Below the pieces are notes generated by a model, which was not told the origin of the DNA, ran no database searches, and saw only the letters and a program-made list of their open reading frames with translations. Of a stretch of 64,000 nt of DNA, positions 21,270-58,759 are shown piece by piece. This DNA is from an uncultured Candidatus Poseidoniales archaeon. GTDB lineage: Archaea; Thermoplasmatota; Poseidoniia; Poseidoniales; Thalassarchaeaceae. A program made the position numbers and the translations under genes. The DNA is taken from contig CAYLUC010000002.1 in NCBI GenBank assembly GCA_964386765.1, positions 2,202 through 66,201 on the forward strand, given 5' to 3'. Each line of letters opens with the position of its first letter. The first letter of the stretch is position 1.

Positions 21270-23774
21270 GTGACCGAGGCGCAGCCGACCCCCGAAAGAC
21301 TCGTCTTGGACAACGAGACCTGGAGTCACAGGGACCTTGCCGAAGTTATCTCATCGAGGTATTTCGTTCTCGGCGATGATGAGATGGGCGCCGCTTCATG
21401 GAGGGTAAGGGGCCACGATGGAAAGGACGAGGGCGACTGCCTCGTGGAGCTGAACCGGCATCTGTCCCCACTTGGGATGATAGGGGTACTGGATTTGGGA
21501 AACCCCCCCGTCCTCTCAATATCCGAGCTTCCCAGTGGGATCCCGGTGCTGCCGAAATGGCAACAGTTCGCCGTTTGGATGGCCATGTTCTCGTTCATGA
21601 CAATCGCCGGTATCGGCCTGATTTCGAGAAATGATCCAGACGCCCAATTTGGAATGGAAGCCATCTCCCAGGCAACATTGTCATTCTCCATCCCCCTCAT
21701 TTTGGCAGTAGCGCTGTCTAGCGAGATTAGGAGGGCAGTCGCAAAGAGGCATGGTGTCGCATTGAGGGGTTTGGTCCCCCTGGGATTCCCCCTTGCAGAT
21801 GCCATTTGGCCATTCGGCGTGGCTGGGTTGCTGCCTCAGAACCGCCCGGATCAAGTCCCATATCCCAACAGGAGGGCATTGGCTCAAGTCGAGTTGTCCG
21901 CTCCATTGGTGACATTCTCATGCGGTGTTTTGCTGTCAATAGTCGGTCTGAGCATGACCTCAACCAGCCCACCCGGTATCAACTCCGCTCCACTGGTCGT
22001 TTCTGCTAATCCCCTGTTGGAACACCTTTCAAACCCATGGCTCGGTGATGATCTGGCTACAAGGCTACAGTGGCTACACCCGACGGGAGTTGCCGGTATC
22101 GGACTCTGCGCCGTCTCATGGATCATGATGATGCCAATTCCAGGCTTCCCCGGGGATCACCTCTTGCACGCAATTTTCGGACCCGACAGCATCCTGGCTG
22201 AAGACAAGCAGACGTACATCTTCGCACTGACTCTGATAATGATGGTCATCGCATTCTCCAGCAACACATGGCTACCATGGCTTTTCCTTGCCGCCCTTGC
22301 TACCTGGAGGAGGTTTAGCCCCAATCCCCTGCTGGACCCTTTCGTGGTGGATGAGCATTCGGGGCTCGACGACATCTCTCGAAACAGGACGATAGCAGCC
22401 GTCATGGTGATCCTGGTCGCAGGATTCCCCGGGATCAACGGGGCATACCATCTGCAAGACTGGGATGAGGGCCTCTCGACCGAGTCATGGCCTGAGTACG
22501 CCTCCTTCGAGGATGGGCACGCTGAGATCGACCTGCTCCTGGAGCCGACCGGAGTATTGCCCGTGTCCGGCTGGCTGCAGATGAGGGTAGAGGGCGCGAG
22601 TAGTGTCGACTGGCAGATCAATTCCAAGTGTCTAGACGAACGAGGAGTATGCAGATTCGACGACATCACCCAAGCGTCACAGGGCAGCATAGAAATTGAA
22701 CTTTCGATAGTCCCTCCCCATTCCCCCGAGATGACATCAGTCATCTCAGAGAATATGACTTTCAGACTAGTAGTCTTAATTGATGTCGATGGTCATGTTT
22801 CCGAGCACTCAGTACTGTTCGAATCGGCCGACTCAACCTCGTCTATAGCTCCTCTTTGGGAATTGGTCGAGGATACATCGACCCCTAGGATATGTGTAAA
22901 GATGAGGGTCTCTGAAGGGGACTATGTCAATCTGAGTCTTCATTCTCATTGGGCGGCATTCTGGTCCTTCGAGAACGAGACTTCACTCGCAGAAGGAACA
23001 CACGACTTGTGCCTGAGGGGAAAGTTCGGAGCCTTCCACTATTCGTCCCATCATCTGTTCCGAGATGAGCAACACCTCCTCCTCGGACCACCGATTATCC
23101 TAGGACGAGATGGCCAACAAGATGAGTGGCTCTCCATGCCAATCGAGGGCACTATGCCAAAACTGCATGTCTCAGGCGAGGAGTGGAAGTTACCCGAAGA
23201 CATGGTGAGTTGGATGGTTTCGAAACAGTATTCCCTTTCTTATGTCGAATCAGGCCCCGTTTTCTGCCCTTCTACCGATGTGATACCGGAGGTAAATGCT
23301 ACGGGCGATTGGGTTCGCGAACTGGCCGACCGCTCCTCTATTCTATTCGCCCCTCCATATGAGAATCCCTCGGAGACTGGCACCATCAGGATAGATAATT
23401 ATGGCTGGCTTCTGGTCTGTAATGGGACGCACATCGTAAAGCTGTGGGAAGTAACCGAAGGGCCGGAGGTGCTGATCAATGGATTTCCAAGTGGCTCCAC
23501 ATTCCCGGGCAGCTCCCAGAATCCTAACCTTGGATTTATTGGTTTCACAATAGAGAACAGGGAGAACTACTCGATGCCCCTGTCAATGGAACTTTCAGGT
23601 GATGCGGGCATCTGGTCCATGCCCTCCTCGGACATTTCTGCTGTCGGACCGATGGAGACCTTGCAAATCGAGCCTGCCACTACTAGCGGATGTTGCTCTG
23701 CATTCTGGGTGACGGCCGACGAGGACGGCATAACGATCCACTACGCAGCCCGCTCCGAAGGGGTTGTGCCATGA
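21270..23774 (+). CDS. Large polytopic membrane protein; site-2-protease (M50)-like core with degenerate metal-binding motifs plus a roughly 450-aa C-terminal extracytoplasmic domain
   Basis: 834 aa. The annotated start is GTG 21270; the first ATG is 21384. Multiple TM helices. LAVALSSEIRRAVAKRHGVALRGLVPLGF aligns to the M50 HExxH helix (consensus LLHELGHALVARRYGV...LPFGG) with both His replaced. MMPIPGFPGDHLLHA aligns to the M50 NxxPxxxLDGG motif. The hydrophilic C-terminal half is Cys-containing. Confidence 0.7.
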   Translation: MTEAQPTPERLVLDNETWSHRDLAEVISSRYFVLGDDEMGAASWRVRGHDGKDEGDCLVELNRHLSPLGMIGVLDLGNPPVLSISELPSGIPVLPKWQQFAVWMAMFSFMTIAGIGLISRNDPDAQFGMEAISQATLSFSIPLILAVALSSEIRRAVAKRHGVALRGLVPLGFPLADAIWPFGVAGLLPQNRPDQVPYPNRRALAQVELSAPLVTFSCGVLLSIVGLSMTSTSPPGINSAPLVVSANPLLEHLSNPWLGDDLATRLQWLHPTGVAGIGLCAVSWIMMMPIPGFPGDHLLHAIFGPDSILAEDKQTYIFALTLIMMVIAFSSNTWLPWLFLAALATWRRFSPNPLLDPFVVDEHSGLDDISRNRTIAAVMVILVAGFPGINGAYHLQDWDEGLSTESWPEYASFEDGHAEIDLLLEPTGVLPVSGWLQMRVEGASSVDWQINSKCLDERGVCRFDDITQASQGSIEIELSIVPPHSPEMTSVISENMTFRLVVLIDVDGHVSEHSVLFESADSTSSIAPLWELVEDTSTPRICVKMRVSEGDYVNLSLHSHWAAFWSFENETSLAEGTHDLCLRGKFGAFHYSSHHLFRDEQHLLLGPPIILGRDGQQDEWLSMPIEGTMPKLHVSGEEWKLPEDMVSWMVSKQYSLSYVESGPVFCPSTDVIPEVNATGDWVRELADRSSILFAPPYENPSETGTIRIDNYGWLLVCNGTHIVKLWEVTEGPEVLINGFPSGSTFPGSSQNPNLGFIGFTIENRENYSMPLSMELSGDAGIWSMPSSDISAVGPMETLQIEPATTSGCCSAFWVTADEDGITIHYAARSEGVVP

Positions 23775-49785: not shown

Positions 49786-50589
49786 ATGGAACTGCCGCTC
49801 GTGTGTGTTGTCCTGAGCGGCTGTACTGTAGACGAGATGCTCAAAGACGCGGCAATGGCCACGGCTTCCGGTGCGGACTTGGTAGAGGTTCGACTGGATC
49901 GCCTCTGGGTCAGGCAAGTATTTCCCGAGCCGGAGGAGACTTCTGAGGAGACGAGGGGACGAAGAAATGAGAGGCAGGAGCCAGACTATGTTCCACAGCC
50001 ACTTGACTCAGTTGACTTGAATTCTGTCCTCGACTCATTCAAGCAGGGAGTCGAATTGCCTGTAATATTGACTTGCAGGCCGATGTCCCAAGGGGGGTAC
50101 TTCCCTGGTAATGAGGAAGAGAGATTGAATGTTCTAAGCGAGGGCATCAAGAGTAGGCCAAGCTGGGTTGATCTAGAAATCGACATTGCTGAGAAGTCAC
50201 GGAAGAAACTCATGAAATTGGCATCGGGTAAGACGAAGGTGATATGCTCTCACCATTCATCCGAGAATCCGCCTCCAACTAGTGAAATTGTGGCCGATGT
50301 CGAAGAGATGTCTACATTGGGTGACATGGTGAAGATTTGTTATCCAACTGGGGGGATAGAGGGCTCATTGAGATTATTCGAAGCCGCATGGGAGTTGAAG
50401 GGCTCCAAAGTTAGCAACTCAATAATGGGACTCGGCTCAGGAGGGGACTGGACAAGGATTCACGCACCCCTTCTCGGACAATACATGGTTTACTCAACCA
50501 TGGAAGTGGGATGGCATTTGGCGTACAAAGGGAAAATCAACAGGTCCGATCTTTCCACGGCCTGGGGACTCCTTGGCTATACTAACTAA
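49786..50589 (+). CDS. aroD: 3-dehydroquinate dehydratase, type I (AroD)
   Basis: LVEVRLD, ILTCRP..QGG, DLEI, ICSHH and MGLGSGG..R align with the E. coli AroD catalytic His and Lys regions. The start is set at MELPLV (49786). There is an acidic insertion of about 45 aa after the LVEVRLD motif. Confidence 0.8.
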   Translation: MELPLVCVVLSGCTVDEMLKDAAMATASGADLVEVRLDRLWVRQVFPEPEETSEETRGRRNERQEPDYVPQPLDSVDLNSVLDSFKQGVELPVILTCRPMSQGGYFPGNEEERLNVLSEGIKSRPSWVDLEIDIAEKSRKKLMKLASGKTKVICSHHSSENPPPTSEIVADVEEMSTLGDMVKICYPTGGIEGSLRLFEAAWELKGSKVSNSIMGLGSGGDWTRIHAPLLGQYMVYSTMEVGWHLAYKGKINRSDLSTAWGLLGYTN

Positions 50590-51520
50590 CTCCCGTATCT
50601 TTCCCCTCAGAATCGAGGTATGGGAGTTCACTTTCTTCATTTGAGACTTCGTCCTTTCCTTCTTGCATGTATTTGGAATGCAAGACGAATGGTACAATCA
50701 GGCATGCCAGGGGCATTGAGGCCACTAGAATGGTCGCAGTAAATTTCGGTATGTTCACCCGTTCTTCCACATCAATGAGGACCTCCACATCAATTGCGCC
50801 CCCTGCGGCCTTGTTGTCGGTGTGCCTCCCATTGTCCCATCCGTCAATTACTAGGAAGTACTCCATGCCTGCGTCTCCAAGTGATGATGACCAAACAGAA
50901 CCCATGGAGTCAATAGCTACTGAGAACTCCTCTTCGGAAACACGCTCATATGCGTGTGAATCGCGGAAAGGCAACCAGTCCACAGTGTCCCTCCATTCGA
51001 CTGGCAAGAAGTCATCTTCCCACAGGTTCTCCATTCTTAGCTCATATTCCCATCCGTAACGGTCCCAGTCCCCTCCTGTCATCAGGTACACGTCTCCCAC
51101 TGGCTCCAGAGGGGTATCGTCCAAGTTGGGGGTCATTTTGATGCAGAATGTGTATCTGTAACCTGGGACCAGTTGCATTTTCAGGGCTGCTGAACTGTCA
51201 TTTTCTATTGTGGTCTCCCAGTATACATCCAAATCGAGTGGCCGCAGGGAATCCTCTCCGTACCCCCAGTTCCAGTAAGTCTCTACGCCGTGTTCTTCGA
51301 CATACTTATCCACGTCAGGAGGATTTGTCGCCGAAACCTCGCATGAATTCGCAGCAACTGCCGAGGGTGATGATAGTATTACAATCATCAAAAGGACGGA
51401 TGGCGAGATGAAACTCAGATTGACGATAGATGCGATGGACTTGTTTGAAATCAGTGCCAATCTAACGCCTCCTTGTTCTGATGGGCCGTACGTACCCCGA
51501 CTCCCTTGTCCTGCGCTCAT
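50582..51520 (-). CDS. secreted or surface protein with a signal peptide and a C-terminal TM anchor plus acidic tail
   Basis: 312 aa. N-terminal hydrophobic signal (SVLLMIVILSSPSAVAANS), a Trp/Asp/Glu-rich ectodomain, a C-terminal TM (FTATILVASMPLACLIVPFVL) and a charged tail. The start is uncertain: the ORF start overlaps the end of the upstream gene by 59 bp, and the internal ATG at 51391 is an alternative. Confidence 0.55.
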   Translation of the reverse strand: MSAGQGSRGTYGPSEQGGVRLALISNKSIASIVNLSFISPSVLLMIVILSSPSAVAANSCEVSATNPPDVDKYVEEHGVETYWNWGYGEDSLRPLDLDVYWETTIENDSSAALKMQLVPGYRYTFCIKMTPNLDDTPLEPVGDVYLMTGGDWDRYGWEYELRMENLWEDDFLPVEWRDTVDWLPFRDSHAYERVSEEEFSVAIDSMGSVWSSSLGDAGMEYFLVIDGWDNGRHTDNKAAGGAIDVEVLIDVEERVNIPKFTATILVASMPLACLIVPFVLHSKYMQEGKDEVSNEESELPYLDSEGKDTGVS

Positions 51521-54500
51521 CCACTGTCAGATATTTCGGTTGTGGTGGTGGCTTGTGCTGATCCATTCCGGGGAGCCCCCCATCACTTTCGACCTCATCG
51601 ACCTCGTAAGTTTCCAGCATGTCCTCTGCATCCAACTCCTCCTCGTCCTTCTGGCGCATTATGACCCATCCCAGGACCATGACCAATGCAACTAATGTGA
51701 GAAGCCCTGCACTTTCCTTGTTCGGAACCAGGTCGGACCAAGTCAGGTCAGATAGGGAAAGAGGGGCTAAATCCTCTTCCTCCGTGAGGACAATTACGAC
51801 GAATTCCATCTCTGAGCAAACTTCAACGCCGTCACAAACCTGCATGAGTATTCGAACCTCGCCCATGCTGTTCCAAGACTGCGAACTCCAGCCCCAATCG
51901 TTTCTTGGGTCTCCATCACCATCGAAGTCCAGAGCGACATTTAGGTCCCATCTGACAACTAGGTCGCCCGTTAAATCACGGTCCATGTCATTGGTAGGGT
52001 CTCCATCTTCATCACTGTCTATTGAAGAATCAGAATCCAACCATGCGGAAATCCCCTCTTCTAAATCGGAATCGAACACCGAATAGTTGAGAATCACGGC
52101 ATCGCCGATATTAACATAGTCGGATCCAATGGGATTCATCTCCTCTATCACAGGTGCCCTGGAAACATGTACTAACATAGTGGTGGAATTAGTCTCTCCA
52201 CCTTCAAATCCATCTACGACTGTCAGAGTCACAACGTATGTCCCTGGGAGGTCATAGTCATGCCAAACTACAGCTCCCTCGACAATTGGCGTGGCATCAC
52301 CGAAGTCCCAAATCCAATGCGTAATGCCATTCCACTCTGGATCTTCTTGATCCGTAGAAGTCCTCCCCACGAAGAGTGGGTCGGAGTCGTAACTCCCAGA
52401 ACCGTCGAATCTAATTGGGGTCTCGGGGGCGACGAATGCGTCCCCATCGCCCGTCTGGGGAATCTGCCAGATTACTGCCTCACCATCCACTGGTTCCCTG
52501 TCAAGAAGACTCCCATTCACACTCGGACACGAGTATGTAAGTTCTGGAACTGGTGCCGGATTCTGTATCCTTAGGGAGTAGGACTTGGTCGCTGATGACA
52601 GTCCTCGTTCGTCTGTTACTGTCAGACTTACGGTGTAGAGGCCGGGGCTTAGGAATGTGTGACTAACAGAACTCGCATTCATTATTGGCGCATCTAAATC
52701 AGAGATATTCCAAGATGTGGATAGTAGGGAAGTGTCTCCGTCTGGATCAAATGAAAGGCTAGTGAATGTGTATGTTGTCTCCACAGTCCCATCAGAAGGC
52801 CTAGAGAAAACAGCTACCGGCCTTTGATTTAGGACGTTAACCACTATTGTTGTGAATGAGGAGTTTCCATCGTCATCAGTTACCTCCAGAGTCACAGTTT
52901 TCGCACCTGGTTCTCTCCAACCGACTACTGGATTACTGAGACTCGACTCAGTGGATGAGAAGTCTGATGTCAGTGACATGCCCCCTCCCTCTAGGTTAAC
53001 GCCGCCCTCAAATTGCCAGTTGTACTCTACAATCATGCCGTCGCTGTCTGTGAATACCTCGGGCATTTCCAGTGGAGTGAGGGTGAATGTCTCCAGAGGC
53101 TCATCGAAAATAAGCTTGGGAAGTCTGTTCAGAACTCTAATGAAAATCGAGTGCTCAACCTCATGAATTCCATCATTAACTGTGAGTGTCAGTGTGTAGA
53201 CGATCCCATCCGCACTACCATCTACCCATGAATGACTCGATTCCGCCAGCCCGACTCCTGAAACCCCTTCTCCATCCCCCCAGTCCCAGCTGAATTGCAA
53301 TTCATCAATGGGGAGGTTGTCCGTAGTTCCCCTGGCTGAGAATTCAACCTGTTGGTTTGTTAGGAGTACTAATTCGTCCGTGACTACCACACCGTCAACT
53401 GAAATCTCGGGAATCGGGTCAGATGTGTCTTGAACTACCACTTCCCAGGACTGGCTCTCTGAGAAGTAACCGCCCTGATCCATCACAGTCAGGACAATAG
53501 TGTACTCCCCCGGGTTGACGTATGGGTGTACAGGATTTTTCAGTCCTGAGGAAATGTTGTCTCCAAGGTCCCAGAAGTATCCGACTGGGGTTTCATTATG
53601 GGAGAAAGTGCCATTCAACTGTCCGAACCCCCATTCGTCATAACCTGAACCAAACATATTGACAGGTAGCCATGTCTGGGTTAGATTCGTCGAAATGGAT
53701 CCAGAGGCAACCGGCTCCATATTGGCCAACTCAACTGGAAGGGCGAAGGCTTGGTCGACCATCGCTCCAGTCACGTCGCTGATGCTAACTCCAAATGTCC
53801 AGTCTCCGGTGTGAGGTGGAGTGAACCAGACGGTTTTTTCAGTTGGAATACTGTTCCCCGCAGTCGCAGAGAAAACTAGGTTGTCGACTAGGGTGTTATT
53901 CACAAACGCGTCAACCGAAACTTCCAGGACTTCGAAGAACGCATTAGAAACTATGTCCAAATTCAACTCGACACTATCATCGACGCCATTGCCATCCCTG
54001 TCGAATGAGTCAATGGTATTTATCGAAACTTCGGCGGGATCGGTTATCAATCCAGCTTGTACCACTACGGATGCGGAGGGATAACTTCCAGTGGTGATGC
54101 CACAGGTCATGTAGTTGTAGTCACAGTCGTCTACCGCCGACTCGAACCAAGTAGTGAGCCAAACTTCGTCAGTAGTGTTCCCGAATCCATGAACTAGTCC
54201 CGTTGCTGCACCCGTTGCTGGATCTATCCTGAGCCTGCTCATCGACCAACTCCCCGTTGCAGAGTCACGGGAGAGGACCGCTCCTTCGAAGCCGAATTGT
54301 GTTGGTTGAACCATCAGGTTAAGAGGGGCTCCAGAACCCTGGTTGAACTTGTATGCCCTGATTCCCCAGCCCTCCACAGATTGGCTAGGGCTAGACCACG
54401 AGTTGACCCACTGGTCGTTGAATCCACTCATCTGAACCCTGCAGATAGAAGCAGCAATACACCCAGCAGTCAAGTCTAGATTGGAGAATCCAAAGGCGCC

Positions 54501-55565
54501 TTGTGCGCTATCAATCGAAACTGCCATGGAAAAGTTGGCGAATATGTCGCTCATGGTGGTCCCTATTGACGTGGACCCCGGCTCGGGGTTGCTGGCTAAG
54601 TTCTCGATTCCCGTTCCACCAGTTGCAGTGTCTGCAATCAGGGCCCTTATTGCGGCACCACCACCTAGTTTGTCAGCCAGGTACATCATGAACATGAATC
54701 CGGCTCCATAATCAGCAATTCTCTGGTTCCACCACCTTACACTCAAGTTCGAATTCTGCGACCATTCGTTAGCATGTCCTGTCAGTGTACTGGTAACGCC
54801 AAAGCAGAGGTAGGCAGCCATATCGGCGGCCCCCTCATCTATCCAGATGAATTCATACGGGTCCCTGGCGTTATGGAGGAGGTGTTGGAACTCGTGTGCT
54901 AGGATGGTGTTCCTCCAACTGAGGTCATCAACATCTACGAAAACCGCTTCCCTCGTTGATGCAAGTCCTGGAACGAAATAGCCGCCTACTGATGCAGCAC
55001 CGTCTATGGAGAGGAGAACAATCTCTATCTGGCAATTATTGTCTACATCGGGAGGCGTTCCGAAGTAGTTCGTATCGGTGGGGAAAATAGTTGACTCCCA
55101 TGTTGAGGTAATGTCGTTCAGGGTGGTCGACGGCACAATCTCACCATCCTCGACGAAAACTACAGAGTTCGTCGAAACTTTCTGTACGGTGGCGGAAATA
55201 GTTCCACTTGCTGTGGAGATGGTGTCAGTATCCCCCTGGCTCCATGCAGCTTCGCAATTTCTGACTGAGTGCCTGGAATTCTGGTATGACTGGGAGAATG
55301 GTAGCACTACTCCGGGGTATCCCTCCTCAACCCACTGCCTCTTCAGGAATCCCGTAGCTGAGAATATCGGTTCTTCGTCACCAGCAAACATGTATTGCTT
55401 GCCCTCAATAGGGGGGACGAAATCCGACAGATCACCCGTGATTTCAATGCTTACTGGGACCTCATCTGCAGGAATCGCGCCGACGACTGGAGAAAGGCTG
55501 GCTAGAAGCATCACTGAAACAATCATGACCGCCGAAGAGGATGAGTTGCTGTGTTTCCGGCCCAT
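51462..55565 (-). CDS. Large secreted zinc metalloprotease with at least five PKD repeats and a C-terminal TM anchor
   Basis: The start is at the signal-peptide Met (MGRKHSNSSSSAVMIVSVMLLASL, 55565). The zinc motif is ILAHEFQHLLHN...EGAAD. PKD-type repeats include FWDLGDNISSGLKNPVHPYVNPGEYTIVLTVMDQGG, FSWDWGDGEG...YTLTLTVNDG, WIWDFGDATP...GTYVVTLTVVDG and two others. C-terminal TM GLLTLVALVMVLGWVIM plus an acidic-then-basic tail ending RTRRR. Confidence 0.8.
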   Translation of the reverse strand: MGRKHSNSSSSAVMIVSVMLLASLSPVVGAIPADEVPVSIEITGDLSDFVPPIEGKQYMFAGDEEPIFSATGFLKRQWVEEGYPGVVLPFSQSYQNSRHSVRNCEAAWSQGDTDTISTASGTISATVQKVSTNSVVFVEDGEIVPSTTLNDITSTWESTIFPTDTNYFGTPPDVDNNCQIEIVLLSIDGAASVGGYFVPGLASTREAVFVDVDDLSWRNTILAHEFQHLLHNARDPYEFIWIDEGAADMAAYLCFGVTSTLTGHANEWSQNSNLSVRWWNQRIADYGAGFMFMMYLADKLGGGAAIRALIADTATGGTGIENLASNPEPGSTSIGTTMSDIFANFSMAVSIDSAQGAFGFSNLDLTAGCIAASICRVQMSGFNDQWVNSWSSPSQSVEGWGIRAYKFNQGSGAPLNLMVQPTQFGFEGAVLSRDSATGSWSMSRLRIDPATGAATGLVHGFGNTTDEVWLTTWFESAVDDCDYNYMTCGITTGSYPSASVVVQAGLITDPAEVSINTIDSFDRDGNGVDDSVELNLDIVSNAFFEVLEVSVDAFVNNTLVDNLVFSATAGNSIPTEKTVWFTPPHTGDWTFGVSISDVTGAMVDQAFALPVELANMEPVASGSISTNLTQTWLPVNMFGSGYDEWGFGQLNGTFSHNETPVGYFWDLGDNISSGLKNPVHPYVNPGEYTIVLTVMDQGGYFSESQSWEVVVQDTSDPIPEISVDGVVVTDELVLLTNQQVEFSARGTTDNLPIDELQFSWDWGDGEGVSGVGLAESSHSWVDGSADGIVYTLTLTVNDGIHEVEHSIFIRVLNRLPKLIFDEPLETFTLTPLEMPEVFTDSDGMIVEYNWQFEGGVNLEGGGMSLTSDFSSTESSLSNPVVGWREPGAKTVTLEVTDDDGNSSFTTIVVNVLNQRPVAVFSRPSDGTVETTYTFTSLSFDPDGDTSLLSTSWNISDLDAPIMNASSVSHTFLSPGLYTVSLTVTDERGLSSATKSYSLRIQNPAPVPELTYSCPSVNGSLLDREPVDGEAVIWQIPQTGDGDAFVAPETPIRFDGSGSYDSDPLFVGRTSTDQEDPEWNGITHWIWDFGDATPIVEGAVVWHDYDLPGTYVVTLTVVDGFEGGETNSTTMLVHVSRAPVIEEMNPIGSDYVNIGDAVILNYSVFDSDLEEGISAWLDSDSSIDSDEDGDPTNDMDRDLTGDLVVRWDLNVALDFDGDGDPRNDWGWSSQSWNSMGEVRILMQVCDGVEVCSEMEFVVIVLTEEEDLAPLSLSDLTWSDLVPNKESAGLLTLVALVMVLGWVIMRQKDEEELDAEDMLETYEVDEVESDGGLPGMDQHKPPPQPKYLTVDERRTRESGYVRPIRTRRR

Positions 55566-55644: not shown

Positions 55645-56664
55645 ATGAGTCACGCGGGCCGACCTCGCATCCGCCCCCTCATGCTCGTAATTGTGCTCAT
55701 CTTGTCTTTATCCAGCTCATCATTTGGATCTGCAGCAGAGGATGAAGAATTTGAGTTAGAAGTTGTTGTTATTGATGAAATACCACATGACCCGGGAGCT
55801 TTCACACAGGGGCTTGAGATGTATGAAGGAAGGATGTTCGAGAGTACGGGCTTGTTCGGAGAATCAACTCTGAGGGAAGTGGACCCATTTTCGGGAGATG
55901 TCTTGAGGTTTGCAAGTTTAGAAGCGTCTCTTTTCGGAGAAGGGATAGCTGTGGTGGGAGACAAAATTTTCATGCTCACATGGCAAAATAATACGGCCCT
56001 AGTTTTTGATAAAGAGACGTTCAGCATCATTCGTAATTTGTCATATGAGGGGGAAGGATGGGGCCTCTGTTTTGACGGGTCAAGTTTGGTCATGTCCAAT
56101 GGGTCCTCTTCACTTTCCTTCAGGGATCCCGAAACATTCGAAATTTCCCGCACAGTTACCATCACTGATAACCATGGAAATCAGGTGGAAATGATAAACG
56201 AGCTAGAGTGCGTAACAACGCCATCCGGGCAGAGTATTTTCGCGAATGTTTGGCAGGAAGACAGAATCCTGATGATAGATCCAATTTCAGGCAATGTGTT
56301 GAGGGAGTATGATGCGTCATTCCTTTCTTCAGAGAATGGGGTTGAACACAACAATGTCTTGAATGGAATCGCCCATAGGGGGTCCTCAGAATTCTGGATT
56401 ACTGGTAAGAACTGGACTTCGATGTACTTGGTGGATTTGCCCATGTCTATTGAGATGGATGAAAACTCCTGCCATTCGTCCTGCTTGATTGAAAGAGAAA
56501 TTTTGGAAAATTGGCCACTTCTACTATTTGCATTGGCGGGAATTACAATTTTCAAGTTCGCTACCTCGAAGGATGGTGAGGAGGAAGGGTCCAATAATCG
56601 GCATGATGAACAGCCTAGCACCACACCGACTATGCAACGAAGGGGGGTGGACGACAATGAGTGA
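55645..56664 (+). CDS. Glutaminyl-peptide cyclotransferase (plant/bacterial-type glutamine cyclase, beta-propeller) with signal peptide and C-terminal TM anchor
   Basis: HDPGAFTQGLEMYEGRMFESTGLFGESTLREVDPFSGDVL...LFGEGIAVVGDKIFMLTWQNNTALVFDKETF matches the Glu_cyclase_2 family. N-terminal signal MSHAGRPRIRPLMLVIVLILSL. C-terminal TM WPLLLFALAGITIFKF plus an acidic tail. The N-terminal part of the 55078 ORF-track model is antisense to the protease gene and is excluded. Confidence 0.8.
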   Translation: MSHAGRPRIRPLMLVIVLILSLSSSSFGSAAEDEEFELEVVVIDEIPHDPGAFTQGLEMYEGRMFESTGLFGESTLREVDPFSGDVLRFASLEASLFGEGIAVVGDKIFMLTWQNNTALVFDKETFSIIRNLSYEGEGWGLCFDGSSLVMSNGSSSLSFRDPETFEISRTVTITDNHGNQVEMINELECVTTPSGQSIFANVWQEDRILMIDPISGNVLREYDASFLSSENGVEHNNVLNGIAHRGSSEFWITGKNWTSMYLVDLPMSIEMDENSCHSSCLIEREILENWPLLLFALAGITIFKFATSKDGEEEGSNNRHDEQPSTTPTMQRRGVDDNE

Positions 56665-57412
56665 CGAATATGAGGAAGAAATCGATAGAAGATCCGGTAT
56701 GGAATTATGGCTTTCCGATCTTTCAACCGACTCGGCCACTCGGAATCTTGGCGCCTTTCTTATTGCATTAGGGAGCCTCCTTGGTGTAATCGTCGGAATT
56801 ATGCTAATTTCTGGTAATGTAAGCGATATTCTATCGGGTGAGATAGACGACTCTGGGGCACAAGCAGATGTGAATGGCATAGTTATTGCCGCTTTAGTGG
56901 ATAATACTACGGGTGCAGATCCAGTAGATGGTGTCAACGTGATCATTTATGACGATCTGGGAATAGAAATTGGAAGTGATTTGACCGACTCTGGTGGGAG
57001 GTTTTCTATCACCGATTTGCCTCGCAGATCTTCCATGCTGGAAGTCGCGCACCCGGGAAATGTAACAATTCACATATTGCTGATTCCAGGGGACTACTCG
57101 CAAATTTCAGTTACACTTACCCAGGGGGATGGGATTGAAACTTCTGATATTAGGGGTGATAGCCATTTGGGGGAGTCAGTCCTAATAGGGACCATAGTAG
57201 CCCTCTTGACTCTATTTTCCGGATTGGCTGGATTGGCCGGGTCCGTCGAGGCGAGAAAGGGACTCAGTTACAGGAGAACATGGTGGCTTTCCTTCATTGG
57301 ACTATGGAGCAGGGGGCTGATGTTTATCGGTCCACTATTCATATTGTCTGGAATGGGTCTCGCCAGTCTTTCCAAAAGTCAGTTCTACGACGTTTATTCG
57401 AAGGAAGAGTGA
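56657..57412 (+). CDS. membrane protein with a carboxypeptidase-regulatory-like beta-sandwich domain flanked by TM helices
   Basis: 8-bp overlap with the cyclase gene stop. TM1 LGAFLIALGSLLGVIVGIMLI, the domain segment GIVIAALVDNTTGADPVDGVNVIIYDDLGIEIGSDLTDSGGRFSITDL, and two more C-terminal TM segments. Confidence 0.55.
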   Translation: MSDEYEEEIDRRSGMELWLSDLSTDSATRNLGAFLIALGSLLGVIVGIMLISGNVSDILSGEIDDSGAQADVNGIVIAALVDNTTGADPVDGVNVIIYDDLGIEIGSDLTDSGGRFSITDLPRRSSMLEVAHPGNVTIHILLIPGDYSQISVTLTQGDGIETSDIRGDSHLGESVLIGTIVALLTLFSGLAGLAGSVEARKGLSYRRTWWLSFIGLWSRGLMFIGPLFILSGMGLASLSKSQFYDVYSKEE

Positions 57413-57418
57413 TTCCGC

Positions 57419-58759
57419 ATGTATCTGATCACTATAGAGGGTGGTGATGGCAGCGGAAAGGGTCTTGCAACCCGTGTTGTTTCCGATGTAATGGGGAAGG
57501 AATTCCCCTTTGTTTCAGTTGAGGTGACTGGGGAGCCAAGAAGGGAGCACCCACTTGGGAGACTCGCAATCGATGCGGTCAGAGAGAAGAAAATGTCCCC
57601 TGACGAGGAGGCCGGGTTATTCGCTGCAGACAGGGTGGACCATTCACATGGCTGGATACTGCCCCGTCTCGAGCAAGGCAAGGCAGTTGTTAGCGAGAGA
57701 AACATCCACTCTTCACTCGTCTACCAGGGGCTCGTTGGGGGGGCCGGGGTGGATCGAGTTGCCCACATGAACTCAGCCGCCCTTATTCCGGATCTATGCA
57801 TCTGGGTGGATTGTGATCCAGATGTGGCGTTAAAACGCATAAAGAGTGGAACTCTGAGGGCGCACTCCAACAAAGAAGAATACTTCGAGACCACCGAATT
57901 ACAAAGAAAAATCAGAGATGGATACAGAAAACTTCTCTCAGGAGAAATAGAAATGCCCGTGCCATTTGACATGGGGGGGATTATTGGCCCCATCCTTAAT
58001 GAGGGAACTGAGGACGAATTCAAGAGTCAACTCAAGGCAGCAATAAGGAGGTTCCTTCATTCTCGACCACTTCCCGTAAACGTAGATGTTGAGATAGTCG
58101 ATAGGAACCTATTGAGGGCCCTGATTAGGAGTTCCAGGGGGCAGTCCACACTCGAGGGGCTCGGAGTTGAACCAACGAGCTCGGGGAAAAATTGGTTGGC
58201 TGGGAAAGCCCCTTGGAGAATGATCAATGAGTGCCAGAAGGAGCACAAGTCAGTAATAGAGTCTGTTGCAGAGGGAGAAAGGGTATACGTTCCTAACCAC
58301 GTTCTTTCACATTCAATTTCATCAGTTCTTGGCACGCTATCGCTAATGGGATCCGCCGACGTCAGAGAGCTGCGCCGCTCCTTGGGCCCAGTTAGGACAG
58401 TTTCTGAGAGGCACACGCAGACGATTGTCAAGTATCTACATGAGGGTCTGGGCTGGATTCATCAGCACCGTTCCCTGATTGGTAGGGAGGCCCCTAGGTC
58501 CCAATTGAGGGACGAATTTAGGCCGATGGGAGTGCTTTCGATAGCGATTTGGCCACTAAGGGACGAATTAATCAGGTGGAAGAGGGAAAACCCAACAACC
58601 CATATGCGCTTTTTCATGGGTCAGATTATCAAGTCAGGGAGGTGCCCAGATGCGGTAAATTCGGTTGTAGAAAGGCTAAAGATTCTGGGGAGTGGAAGTG
58701 ATTCATGCGAGGTCCCAGATAACCCGGGAGAACTAGTAAAGTGGTGGATGAATGCCTAG
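57419..58759 (+). CDS. Thymidylate kinase-like N-terminal domain fused to an unknown C-terminal domain of about 240 aa
   Basis: N-terminal ITIEGGDGSGKG (Tmk P-loop EG.DG.GK(S/T), but Gly follows the Lys) and LFAADRVDH (the Tmk DR(Y/H) motif). Residues from about 205 to 446 (NLLRALIRSS...ERLKILGSGSD) have no recognisable family. Confidence 0.7.
   Translation: MYLITIEGGDGSGKGLATRVVSDVMGKEFPFVSVEVTGEPRREHPLGRLAIDAVREKKMSPDEEAGLFAADRVDHSHGWILPRLEQGKAVVSERNIHSSLVYQGLVGGAGVDRVAHMNSAALIPDLCIWVDCDPDVALKRIKSGTLRAHSNKEEYFETTELQRKIRDGYRKLLSGEIEMPVPFDMGGIIGPILNEGTEDEFKSQLKAAIRRFLHSRPLPVNVDVEIVDRNLLRALIRSSRGQSTLEGLGVEPTSSGKNWLAGKAPWRMINECQKEHKSVIESVAEGERVYVPNHVLSHSISSVLGTLSLMGSADVRELRRSLGPVRTVSERHTQTIVKYLHEGLGWIHQHRSLIGREAPRSQLRDEFRPMGVLSIAIWPLRDELIRWKRENPTTHMRFFMGQIIKSGRCPDAVNSVVERLKILGSGSDSCEVPDNPGELVKWWMNA

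What the first reader, a model, noticed from the sequence alone, without database searches (positions are those of the whole stretch)
51462..55565. 1368-aa secreted zinc protease with an HEFQH motif and five PKD repeats
HEFQHLLHN followed by EGAAD is a zincin-like motif whose exact clan I cannot assign from sequence alone. Candidates are an M6/InhA-like family or a novel HExxH plus E family. Downstream there are at least five clear PKD repeats with the WDFGDG...YTV.LTV.D signature. The architecture is that of an adhesive, membrane-tethered extracellular protease.
Basis: seen in the sequence. Interest (0 to 1): 0.5.

Follow-up and report, generated by a model that had tools for sequence, protein, structure and literature searches.

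The report
Membrane-anchored M30-type zinc protease of MGII archaea
This gene encodes a cell-surface zinc protease of the hyicolysin/lugdulysin (M30) family, held on a long stalk of PKD/Ig-like domains; it is conserved in every Marine Group II archaeon examined, so it is an ordinary kind of enzyme that is poorly annotated in an ecologically important, uncultured group.

Summary
Window 51462-55565 (minus strand) is a 1367-aa ORF with HEFQH (aa 224-228), EGAAD (244-248), five PKD repeats, an N-terminal signal sequence and a C-terminal transmembrane helix.

The catalytic domain is neither M6/InhA-like nor a new family. It is a divergent member of MEROPS family M30 (hyicolysin/lugdulysin):
- An ortholog profile hits lugdulysin (PDB 7bb8) at E=4.6e-41.
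- H224, E225, H228, E244 and D248 are invariant in 60/60 orthologs, and Y286 in 59/60. HEFQH, E244 and Y286 align with lugdulysin's HEYQH, NEAL Glu and Y315.

Pfam's M30 model does not detect the protein, and public records call its orthologs "hypothetical" or "PKD domain-containing". One published supplementary table already lists a single M30 gene per MGII genome.

The gene is a syntenic core gene across Poseidoniales (80 genomes, 41-94% identity). It is probably co-transcribed with an unknown anchored protein.

One feature is unexpected: the 63-aa cytoplasmic tail is as conserved as the catalytic domain.

Verdict: new member of a known kind, of moderate interest.

The parts
51462..55565 (-). 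Whole gene: 1367-aa type I membrane protein (stop TAG 51464-51462).
   Evidence: ORF list and translation. Full-length orthologs of 1363-1412 aa occur in Poseidoniales genomes.
55476..55565 (-). aa 1-30: signal sequence, with a basic n-region (MGRKH), a hydrophobic core and VVGA|IP.
   Evidence: Hydropathy is above 1.6 over aa 9-34. An N-terminal hydrophobic segment is present in nearly all orthologs with an intact N-terminus. The cleavage site is inferred.
55272..55475 (-). aa 31-98: low-confidence segment with conserved motifs. It may be a prosegment or linker.
   Evidence: AF2 pLDDT is below 50 over most of model residues 1-68. Seven positions are invariant across orthologs. The prosegment role is inference only.
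54426..55271 (-). aa 99-380: M30-type (lugdulysin-like) gluzincin catalytic domain.
54882..54896 (-). HEFQH (aa 224-228): two zinc-ligand His residues and the catalytic Glu.
   Evidence: It aligns with HEYQH of lugdulysin, whose inactive mutant is E242Q. It is invariant in 60/60 orthologs and in 54 distant homologs.
54822..54836 (-). EGAAD (aa 244-248): ExxxD motif, with E244 the presumed third zinc ligand and D248.
   Evidence: E244 aligns with the Glu of lugdulysin's WLNEAL. E244 and D248 are invariant in 60/60 orthologs, and the Glu is invariant in 54 distant homologs.
54708..54710 (-). Y286 (in ADYGAG): presumed catalytic or transition-state Tyr.
   Evidence: It aligns with lugdulysin Y315, which is mutated in the E242Q/Y315F inactive variant 7bb9. 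It is conserved in 59/60 orthologs and nearly invariant in distant homologs.
54042..54425 (-). aa 381-508: β-sandwich domain resembling the PPC or collagen-binding domain.
53715..54041 (-). aa 509-617: Ig-like β-sandwich domain.
   Evidence: The second AF2 model is all-β here with pLDDT above 90. There is no Pfam hit.
52155..53714 (-). aa 618-1137: five tandem PKD domains. PKD3 is degenerate and PKD5 carries an insertion of about 50 aa.
   Evidence: Pfam PKD_4 gives E=3.3e-47 with 5 stretches. The self-built HMM finds 5 units. The AF2 model shows five β-sandwiches. Foldseek hits are to strings of Ig/PKD-like domains.
51756..52154 (-). aa 1138-1270: last β-domain, with long acidic D-rich loops (DSDEDGDPTND, DFDGDGDPRND) and an invariant Cys pair, C1244 and C1250.
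   Evidence: AF2 model with pLDDT about 60-88. The Cys pair is invariant. A calcium-binding role for the loops is inference from their sequence.
51654..51716 (-). aa 1284-1304: transmembrane helix.
   Evidence: Hydropathy reaches 2.3. A helix is present at the same relative position in all full-length orthologs.
51465..51653 (-). aa 1305-1367: conserved cytoplasmic tail (TY-DV..VE..GG..GMDQH.PPP.P ... SGYVRP..RRR).
   Evidence: Tail length is 57-63 aa in all full-length orthologs. Mean conservation is 0.71, with 22 of 63 positions invariant, against 0.73 for the catalytic domain. Synonymous divergence is the same as elsewhere in the gene. No other protein type carrying this tail was found.
50582..51460 (-). 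Downstream gene 'p312': secreted protein with a C-terminal anchor and unknown function. It is probably co-transcribed (candidate TTG start at 51460, 1 nt after the protease stop).
   Evidence: It lies immediately downstream on the same strand in 70 of 80 loci. Ortholog starts sit at -3 to about +75 nt from the protease stop. There is no Pfam or PDB match.

Best explanation
The gene encodes a type I membrane-anchored, outward-facing zinc endopeptidase of the M30 (hyicolysin/lugdulysin) type in a Marine Group II (Poseidoniales, MGIIb-like) archaeon.

Proposed mechanism:
- A signal sequence exports the N-terminus.
- The catalytic domain (aa ~99-380) binds zinc through H224, H228 and E244. E225 acts as the general base and Y286 helps stabilise the transition state, as in lugdulysin and other gluzincins.
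- The catalytic domain sits at the far end of eight β-sandwich domains: one PPC-like, one Ig-like, five PKD and one acidic-loop domain.
- These domains act as a stalk, and possibly as a substrate-binding arm. By inference from typical domain sizes, they hold the enzyme tens of nanometres above the membrane.
- A single helix (aa 1284-1304) anchors the protein. A conserved 63-aa tail faces the cytoplasm.

The most likely role is cleavage of extracellular proteins at the cell surface, so that the products stay near the cell's peptide transporters.

Shown here: homology, fold, conservation of the catalytic residues, predicted topology, and order-wide conservation and synteny. Inferred: zinc dependence, activity, substrates, prosegment, and the roles of the stalk and the tail.
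For: Family and fold:
- Lugdulysin (M30) is the only PDB protease matched by sequence (E=1.1e-7 for the single sequence; E=4.6e-41 for the profile).
- The AF2 model is confident (pLDDT 83, pTM 0.82).

Catalytic residues:
- H224, E225, H228, E244 and D248 are invariant in 60/60 orthologs, and Y286 in 59/60.
- H, E, H and E are invariant in 54 diverse members of a superfamily of 8800 clusters.

Topology:
- The N-terminal signal and the C-terminal TM helix with tail are conserved in all full-length orthologs.
- Four invariant Cys pairs lie in the ectodomain.

Stalk: 5 Pfam PKD stretches and an all-β 'beads on a string' model.

Host and conservation:
- The 80 best genome hits are all Poseidoniales.
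- The order gyrA-gyrB-aroD-p312-protease-...-tmk-DUF2085 is conserved.

Literature:
- Poseidoniales are inferred to be proteolytic heterotrophs (PMC6336850; PMC6461757).
- Table S5 of PMC6864105 lists exactly one M30 gene per MGII MAG cluster.
Against: - No activity, zinc-binding or expression data exist for this protein or any ortholog.
- Pfam's Peptidase_M30 model (PF10460) gives no hit even at E<=10, so the protein is a distant member.
- A nutrient-scavenging role is not the only reading. Single-copy, order-wide conservation in a housekeeping neighbourhood, a strongly conserved cytoplasmic tail and a conserved operon partner would also fit a cell-envelope maintenance or processing role.
- The localisation tool used in PMC6864105 called the MGII M30 genes 'C/M', not extracellular.
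- Model coordinates could not be inspected, so ligand geometry was not measured.
Confidence: 0.75

Rival explanations
1. Same enzyme, different job. It is a cell-envelope maturation or turnover protease that processes the archaeon's own surface proteins (S-layer, adhesins, transporter-binding proteins) rather than foraging. It would work with its operon partner p312, and its cytoplasmic tail would control or position it.
For: - The gene is a syntenic core gene in all 80 Poseidoniales genomes, embedded among housekeeping genes (gyrase, aroD, tmk, SufBD). A published table lists one M30 gene per MGII genome.
- The cytoplasmic tail is as conserved as the catalytic domain, and the constraint acts on the protein.
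- The anchored partner p312 is conserved directly downstream.
- In MGIIb genomes a membrane-anchored glutaminyl cyclase, an enzyme that modifies the N-termini of secreted proteins, is divergently transcribed 79 bp away.
Against: - There is no direct evidence for any endogenous substrate.
- The glutaminyl cyclase was not detected at this position in MGIIa loci, so that link is not order-wide.
- Long PKD/PPC-bearing proteases in marine bacteria and the clostridial collagenases are typically substrate-foraging enzymes (established knowledge, not tested here).
Confidence: 0.2
2. One reading: the catalytic domain is an M6/InhA-like peptidase, or it founds a new HExxH+E family.
For: - A few distant bacterial homologs carry an InhA-like MAM domain (P0050).
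- Seven of 54 distant homologs weakly match NCBIfam's 'T9SS-dependent M6-like inactivated metalloprotease'.
- Pfam has no model that detects this domain.
Against: - There is no Pfam Peptidase_M6 hit at E<=10.
- A profile search of all PDB sequences at E<=1 finds only lugdulysin (M30) among peptidases.
- A MEROPS-based survey lists M30 and M06 as separate MGII genes, with M06 in MGIIa only.
Confidence: 0.03
3. It is a non-catalytic adhesin or pseudo-protease, in which the zincin fold serves only as a binding module on a PKD stalk.
For: - The PKD/Ig strings resemble those of surface adhesins and S-layer proteins.
- Inactive M6-like homologs are recognised by NCBIfam among distant relatives.
Against: All catalytic residues (H224, E225, H228, E244, D248, Y286) are conserved across orthologs that are only 43-94% identical overall, and the H-E-H-E set is invariant in 54 distant homologs. 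Such strict retention is not expected of a pseudo-enzyme.
Confidence: 0.02

Closest known systems
Lugdulysin (Staphylococcus lugdunensis) and hyicolysin (S. hyicus), MEROPS family M30, clan MA(E); PDB 7bb8/7bb9
   Different: - Identity is only about 20%, and Pfam PF10460 does not detect this protein.
- The spacer between HExxH and the Glu is shorter (16 residues), and there is an extra invariant His (HExxHxxH).
- The staphylococcal enzymes are soluble proteins of about 400-440 aa (the crystallised lugdulysin chain is 410 aa).
- This one is 1367 aa, archaeal, with 8 extra β-domains, a TM anchor and a conserved cytoplasmic tail.
MXAN_6640 family putative metalloprotease (NCBIfam NF045524) and the wider bacterial superfamily found here
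   Same: They share the HExxH...E...Y core. Forty-nine of 54 sampled homologs, and the window protein itself, match this model weakly. Most are multidomain extracellular proteins carrying T9SS, FlgD-Ig, PKD or Big domains.
   Different: All matches are far below the model's cutoff (13.5 bits against 140 for the window protein). The family itself is only 'putative', with no characterised member that I know of.
Clostridial collagenases ColG/ColH (M9) and other PKD/PPC-bearing secreted proteases
   Same: The architectural logic is the same: a gluzincin catalytic domain followed by PKD domains and a PPC or collagen-binding-like β-sandwich.
Immune inhibitor A (InhA), MEROPS M6
   Same: Both are secreted HExxH metallopeptidases with accessory β-domains. 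A few distant homologs of the query share an InhA-like MAM domain.
   Different: There is no detectable sequence or top-60 structural similarity between the catalytic domains.

Membership tests
MEROPS M30 (hyicolysin/lugdulysin) | Statistically significant sequence similarity of the peptidase unit to a family member | tested here: met
   phmmer against lugdulysin 7bb8 gives E=1.1e-7 over aa 123-361. The ortholog profile gives E=4.6e-41 and 144.6 bits.
MEROPS M30 (hyicolysin/lugdulysin) | Same catalytic-domain fold | tested here: met
MEROPS M30 (hyicolysin/lugdulysin) | HExxH plus a downstream Glu (zinc ligands and general base) and a catalytic Tyr at the aligned positions | tested here: met
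   HEFQH aligns with HEYQH (E242), E244 with the Glu of NEAL, and Y286 with Y315. These residues are invariant or nearly so in 60 orthologs and 54 distant homologs.
MEROPS M30 (hyicolysin/lugdulysin) | Match to Pfam Peptidase_M30 (PF10460) above the gathering score | tested here: not met
   There is no hit at E<=10 for the N-terminal 618 aa or for the isolated catalytic domain. As a control, lugdulysin residues 61-360 score only 32.2 bits against a cutoff of 25.8, so the model is narrow. None of 54 superfamily members hit it.
MEROPS M30 (hyicolysin/lugdulysin) | Zinc-dependent endopeptidase activity inhibited by chelators | not testable with these tools
   This needs expression and an assay with and without EDTA or 1,10-phenanthroline.
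MEROPS M6 (immune inhibitor A) | Sequence or fold similarity of the catalytic unit to InhA (Pfam Peptidase_M6) | tested here: not met
PKD domain (Pfam PF18911/PF00801) | Match above the gathering score; repeated β-sandwich units | tested here: met
   PKD_4 scores 158.9 bits (cutoff 27) with 5 stretches; PKD scores 97.9 bits. The self-HMM finds 5 units and the AF2 model shows five β-sandwiches.
Archaeosortase-type C-terminal sorting signal (PGF-CTERM-like) | A C-terminal tripartite signal that ends shortly after the TM helix | tested here: not met
   The TM helix (1284-1304) is followed by a conserved 63-aa tail. No such NCBIfam model appears in the scan. The protein is therefore read as a stable type I membrane protein.

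The most novel reading that the evidence does not exclude
The protease, its invariant-length cytoplasmic tail and the co-transcribed anchored protein p312 form an order-specific envelope module. In this module, proteolysis outside the cell is coupled to something inside it, such as positioning, regulation or signalling through the tail. That would make it more than a simple tethered digestive enzyme. Such coupling has not been described for M30 peptidases or, to my knowledge, for archaeal surface proteases.
Probability: 0.15. Interest if true: 0.6.

Novelty: new member of a known kind. Interest (0 to 1): 0.35.

Why it matters
Marine Group II archaea are among the most abundant planktonic archaea in surface ocean waters. 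They are uncultured and are thought to live by degrading proteins and other high-molecular-weight organic matter (PMC6336850, PMC6461757).

This protease is one of very few endopeptidases conserved, in the same genomic position, across both MGII families. Standard annotation largely misses it:
- Pfam does not detect its catalytic domain.
- NCBI records call its orthologs 'hypothetical' or 'PKD domain-containing'.
- A Pfam-based inventory names only two shared extracellular peptidases and does not mention M30 in its main text.
- The one survey that lists an M30 gene predicted it to be cytoplasmic or membrane-located.

Recognising it as a surface-exposed M30 enzyme gives a concrete target for expression. 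Its substrate specificity could then be measured to learn what MGII cells actually cut. The finding also extends a two-enzyme, staphylococcus-centred family to a very large, mostly unannotated superfamily (8800 clusters at 50% identity).

Tried and rejected
- Pfam and NCBIfam scans of the full protein and of isolated segments gave only PKD hits and sub-threshold HExxH families (flagellinolysin at 2e-4, MXAN_6640 at 0.04). Nothing was found for the PPC-like, Ig-like or last β-domain, or for p312.
- M6/InhA and 'novel family' were rejected.
- The second HExxH at aa 801 was rejected as chance.
- The longer ORF start at 55646 was rejected.
- I tested whether the tail's conservation reflects DNA-level constraint from the downstream gene. 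Synonymous divergence is 0.64, against 0.61-0.64 in the catalytic and other ectodomain regions, so this was rejected.
- I tested whether the tail is a module shared with other proteins. The database search returned only short C-terminal fragments that look like orthologs, and the motif is unique in the window.
- Sigma-70 promoter and terminator scans were no better than shuffles, as expected for an archaeon.
- The AFDB fold library was unavailable.
- Literature searches for lugdulysin, M30 or hyicolysin papers found no structural paper in the library, and no paper links M30 with MGII in its main text.
- p312 has no PDB or Pfam relative.
Full report
**1. Observation**

The finding's coordinates hold an ORF on the minus strand with its stop codon (TAG) at 51464-51462. 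That start is preferred for two reasons. It places a basic n-region and hydrophobic core at the very N-terminus, as in the orthologs. The longer start would run into the divergently transcribed neighbour, whose ATG is at 55645.

HEFQH is at aa 224-228 and EGAAD at aa 244-248. Pfam finds five PKD stretches (PKD_4, E=3.3e-47). An HMM built from the protein's own repeats finds five units. Hydrophobic segments lie at aa 10-33 and 1284-1304. A second HExxH (HEVEH, aa 801) lies within PKD2 and is not conserved, so it is a chance occurrence.

**2. What the catalytic domain is**

Pfam gives no protease hit, even at E<=10. A plain phmmer search of all PDB sequences returns one protease, lugdulysin. This is the Staphylococcus lugdunensis M30 zinc metallopeptidase (7bb8; inactive mutant 7bb9 = E242Q/Y315F), at E=1.1e-7 over aa 123-361. 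Three features align:
- HEFQH with HEYQH.
- E244 (W-I-D-E-G) with the Glu of W-L-N-E-A.
- Y286 (A-D-Y-G) with Y315.

A profile built from 27 homologs (A1) raises this match to E=4.6e-41, and at E<=1 it finds no other peptidase.

The domain is therefore a gluzincin of the M30 type.

**3. Conservation**

A scan of one genome per prokaryotic species returned 80 loci, all from Poseidoniales. They include Ca. Poseidoniaceae (MGIIa), Ca. Thalassarchaeaceae (MGIIb) and Thalassarchaeum. The catalytic region is 50-96% identical across these loci.

The gene order gyrA-gyrB-aroD-p312-protease-(glutaminyl cyclase)-p307-tmk-DUF2085 is kept throughout. The rest of the window is archaeal housekeeping: A-type ATPase, SMC, eIF2γ, HMG-CoA reductase and SufBD.

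From the loci I extracted 59 full-length orthologs of 1363-1412 aa. All have an N-terminal hydrophobic segment, a C-terminal TM helix and a tail of 57-63 residues. Over the full length they are 43-94% identical to the window protein. Across the 60 sequences:
- H224, E225, H228, H231, E244 and D248 are invariant, and Y286 is present in 59/60.
- Four Cys pairs (104/178, 369/375, 481/488, 1244/1250) are invariant.

An exhaustive profile search of 1.84 billion representative proteins found 8800 clusters at E<=1e-3 and 2042 at E<=1e-30. In 54 sampled members the H, E, H and E positions are invariant and the Tyr nearly so. These members are multidomain bacterial proteins carrying T9SS sorting, FlgD-Ig, PKD or Big domains. 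None matches Pfam Peptidase_M30, and 49 match NCBIfam's MXAN_6640 'putative metalloprotease' model below its cutoff. As a control, lugdulysin residues 61-360 score only 32 bits on PF10460. The Pfam model is thus too narrow for this superfamily.

**4. The rest of the protein**

A second AF2 model (aa 500-1290; pLDDT 84; low pTM, as expected for a flexible string) shows seven further β-sandwiches:
- one Ig-like domain;
- five PKD domains (the third degenerate, the fifth with an insertion);
- a final domain with long acidic D-rich loops.

Its Foldseek matches are generic strings of Ig/PKD-like domains.

After the TM helix comes a 63-aa tail, which is the most unexpected feature of the protein:
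- Its mean column conservation is 0.71, with 22 invariant positions. This matches the catalytic domain (0.73) and exceeds the PKD domains (0.58-0.65).
- At residues identical to the window protein, the fraction encoded by a different codon is 0.64 in the tail and 0.61-0.64 in the catalytic and other ectodomain regions. The constraint is therefore on the protein, not on signals for the downstream gene.
- The tail motif is unique in the window. A database search found only short C-terminal fragments that look like orthologs.

**5. Mechanism proposed**

The protein is exported by the signal sequence. The catalytic domain then faces outward at the tip of a stalk of eight β-domains, anchored by one helix.
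- Zinc is held by H224, H228 and E244.
- E225 activates water.
- Y286 assists catalysis, by analogy with lugdulysin's inactivating E242Q/Y315F mutations and general gluzincin chemistry.

Residues 31-98 are conserved in sequence but poorly modelled, and may be a prosegment. This is inference, based on my recollection that hyicolysin is made as a prepro-enzyme.

The physiological role is most likely surface-bound digestion of exogenous protein. This fits the proteolytic lifestyle inferred for the order. The rival role is processing of the cell's own envelope proteins. That reading is favoured by the housekeeping-like conservation, the conserved tail, the operon partner and, in MGIIb, the adjacent anchored glutaminyl cyclase. 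I give it about 0.2.

**6. Comparison with the literature**
- Tully (2019) inventoried MGII extracellular peptidases with Pfam models at -T 75. The paper names two shared ones (sedolisin-like and M14D), and its main text does not mention M30. A Pfam-based screen cannot see this gene.
- Rinke et al. do not mention M30 in the main text or in the supplements held here.
- Orellana et al. (2019), Table S5, lists MEROPS M30 'hyicolysin' with exactly one copy in each of four MGIIa and four MGIIb MAG clusters. The best MEROPS hits are MER0294630 and MER0162347, and the predicted localisation is C/M rather than extracellular.

The pattern in Table S5 matches this gene, although I could not check sequence identity. 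The family assignment is thus already implicit in MEROPS and in one supplementary table. What is added here:
- the structural confirmation;
- the topology and architecture;
- the order-wide synteny;
- the operon partner;
- the conserved cytoplasmic tail.

**7. Verdict**

The protein is a divergent, archaeal, membrane-anchored member of the M30 family: a new member of a known kind. Interest is moderate, resting on its ecological context and on the unexplained tail.

Noticed in passing
window 51465-51653 (-), aa 1305-1367: The cytoplasmic tail of the protease is as conserved as the catalytic domain across the whole order (22 of 63 positions invariant; length 57-63 aa). Synonymous divergence is normal, so selection acts on the protein. 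No partner or known motif was identified.
   Followed up: partly
window 50582-51460 (-): A gene of unknown function ('p312') encodes a signal sequence, an ectodomain of about 200 aa and a C-terminal TM helix. It directly follows the protease on the same strand in 70 of 80 Poseidoniales loci. A candidate TTG start lies 1 nt after the protease stop, and in other genomes the starts overlap or abut the stop. It has no Pfam or PDB match and is probably an operon partner.
   Followed up: partly
window 55645-56664 (+): A plant-type glutaminyl cyclase (Pfam Glu_cyclase_2, E=1e-81) with an N-terminal signal and a C-terminal TM helix is divergently transcribed from the protease across a 79-bp intergenic region. 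It was detected at this position in MGIIb-type loci but not in MGIIa loci L059-L080.
   Followed up: partly
window 56489-57412 (+): A membrane protein with a weak CarboxypepD_reg-like domain (E=7e-5, below cutoff) is conserved next to the cluster in 74 of 80 loci. Its ORF overlaps the 3' end of the cyclase ORF, so its true start is probably further downstream.
   Followed up: no
window 53151-53165 (-), aa 801-805: A second HExxH (HEVEH) lies inside PKD2. It is not conserved in orthologs and is a chance match, not a second active site.
   Followed up: yes
window 57419-58759 (+): The thymidylate kinase ORF is 446 aa, but the Pfam domain covers only residues 6-174. A C-terminal extension of about 270 aa has no annotation, and the gene is conserved in 71 of 80 loci.
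   Followed up: no
window 21270-23774 (+): An 834-aa ORF has no Pfam hit at E<=1e-4.
   Followed up: no
related proteins P0001-P0048, P0203-P0244: In the 90%-clustered protein collection, almost all orthologs are truncated fragments. Some are 52-78-aa C-terminal pieces on contigs of 60 kb to 1.1 Mb. This suggests that gene calling often splits or truncates this long gene, which may contribute to its poor annotation.
   Followed up: no
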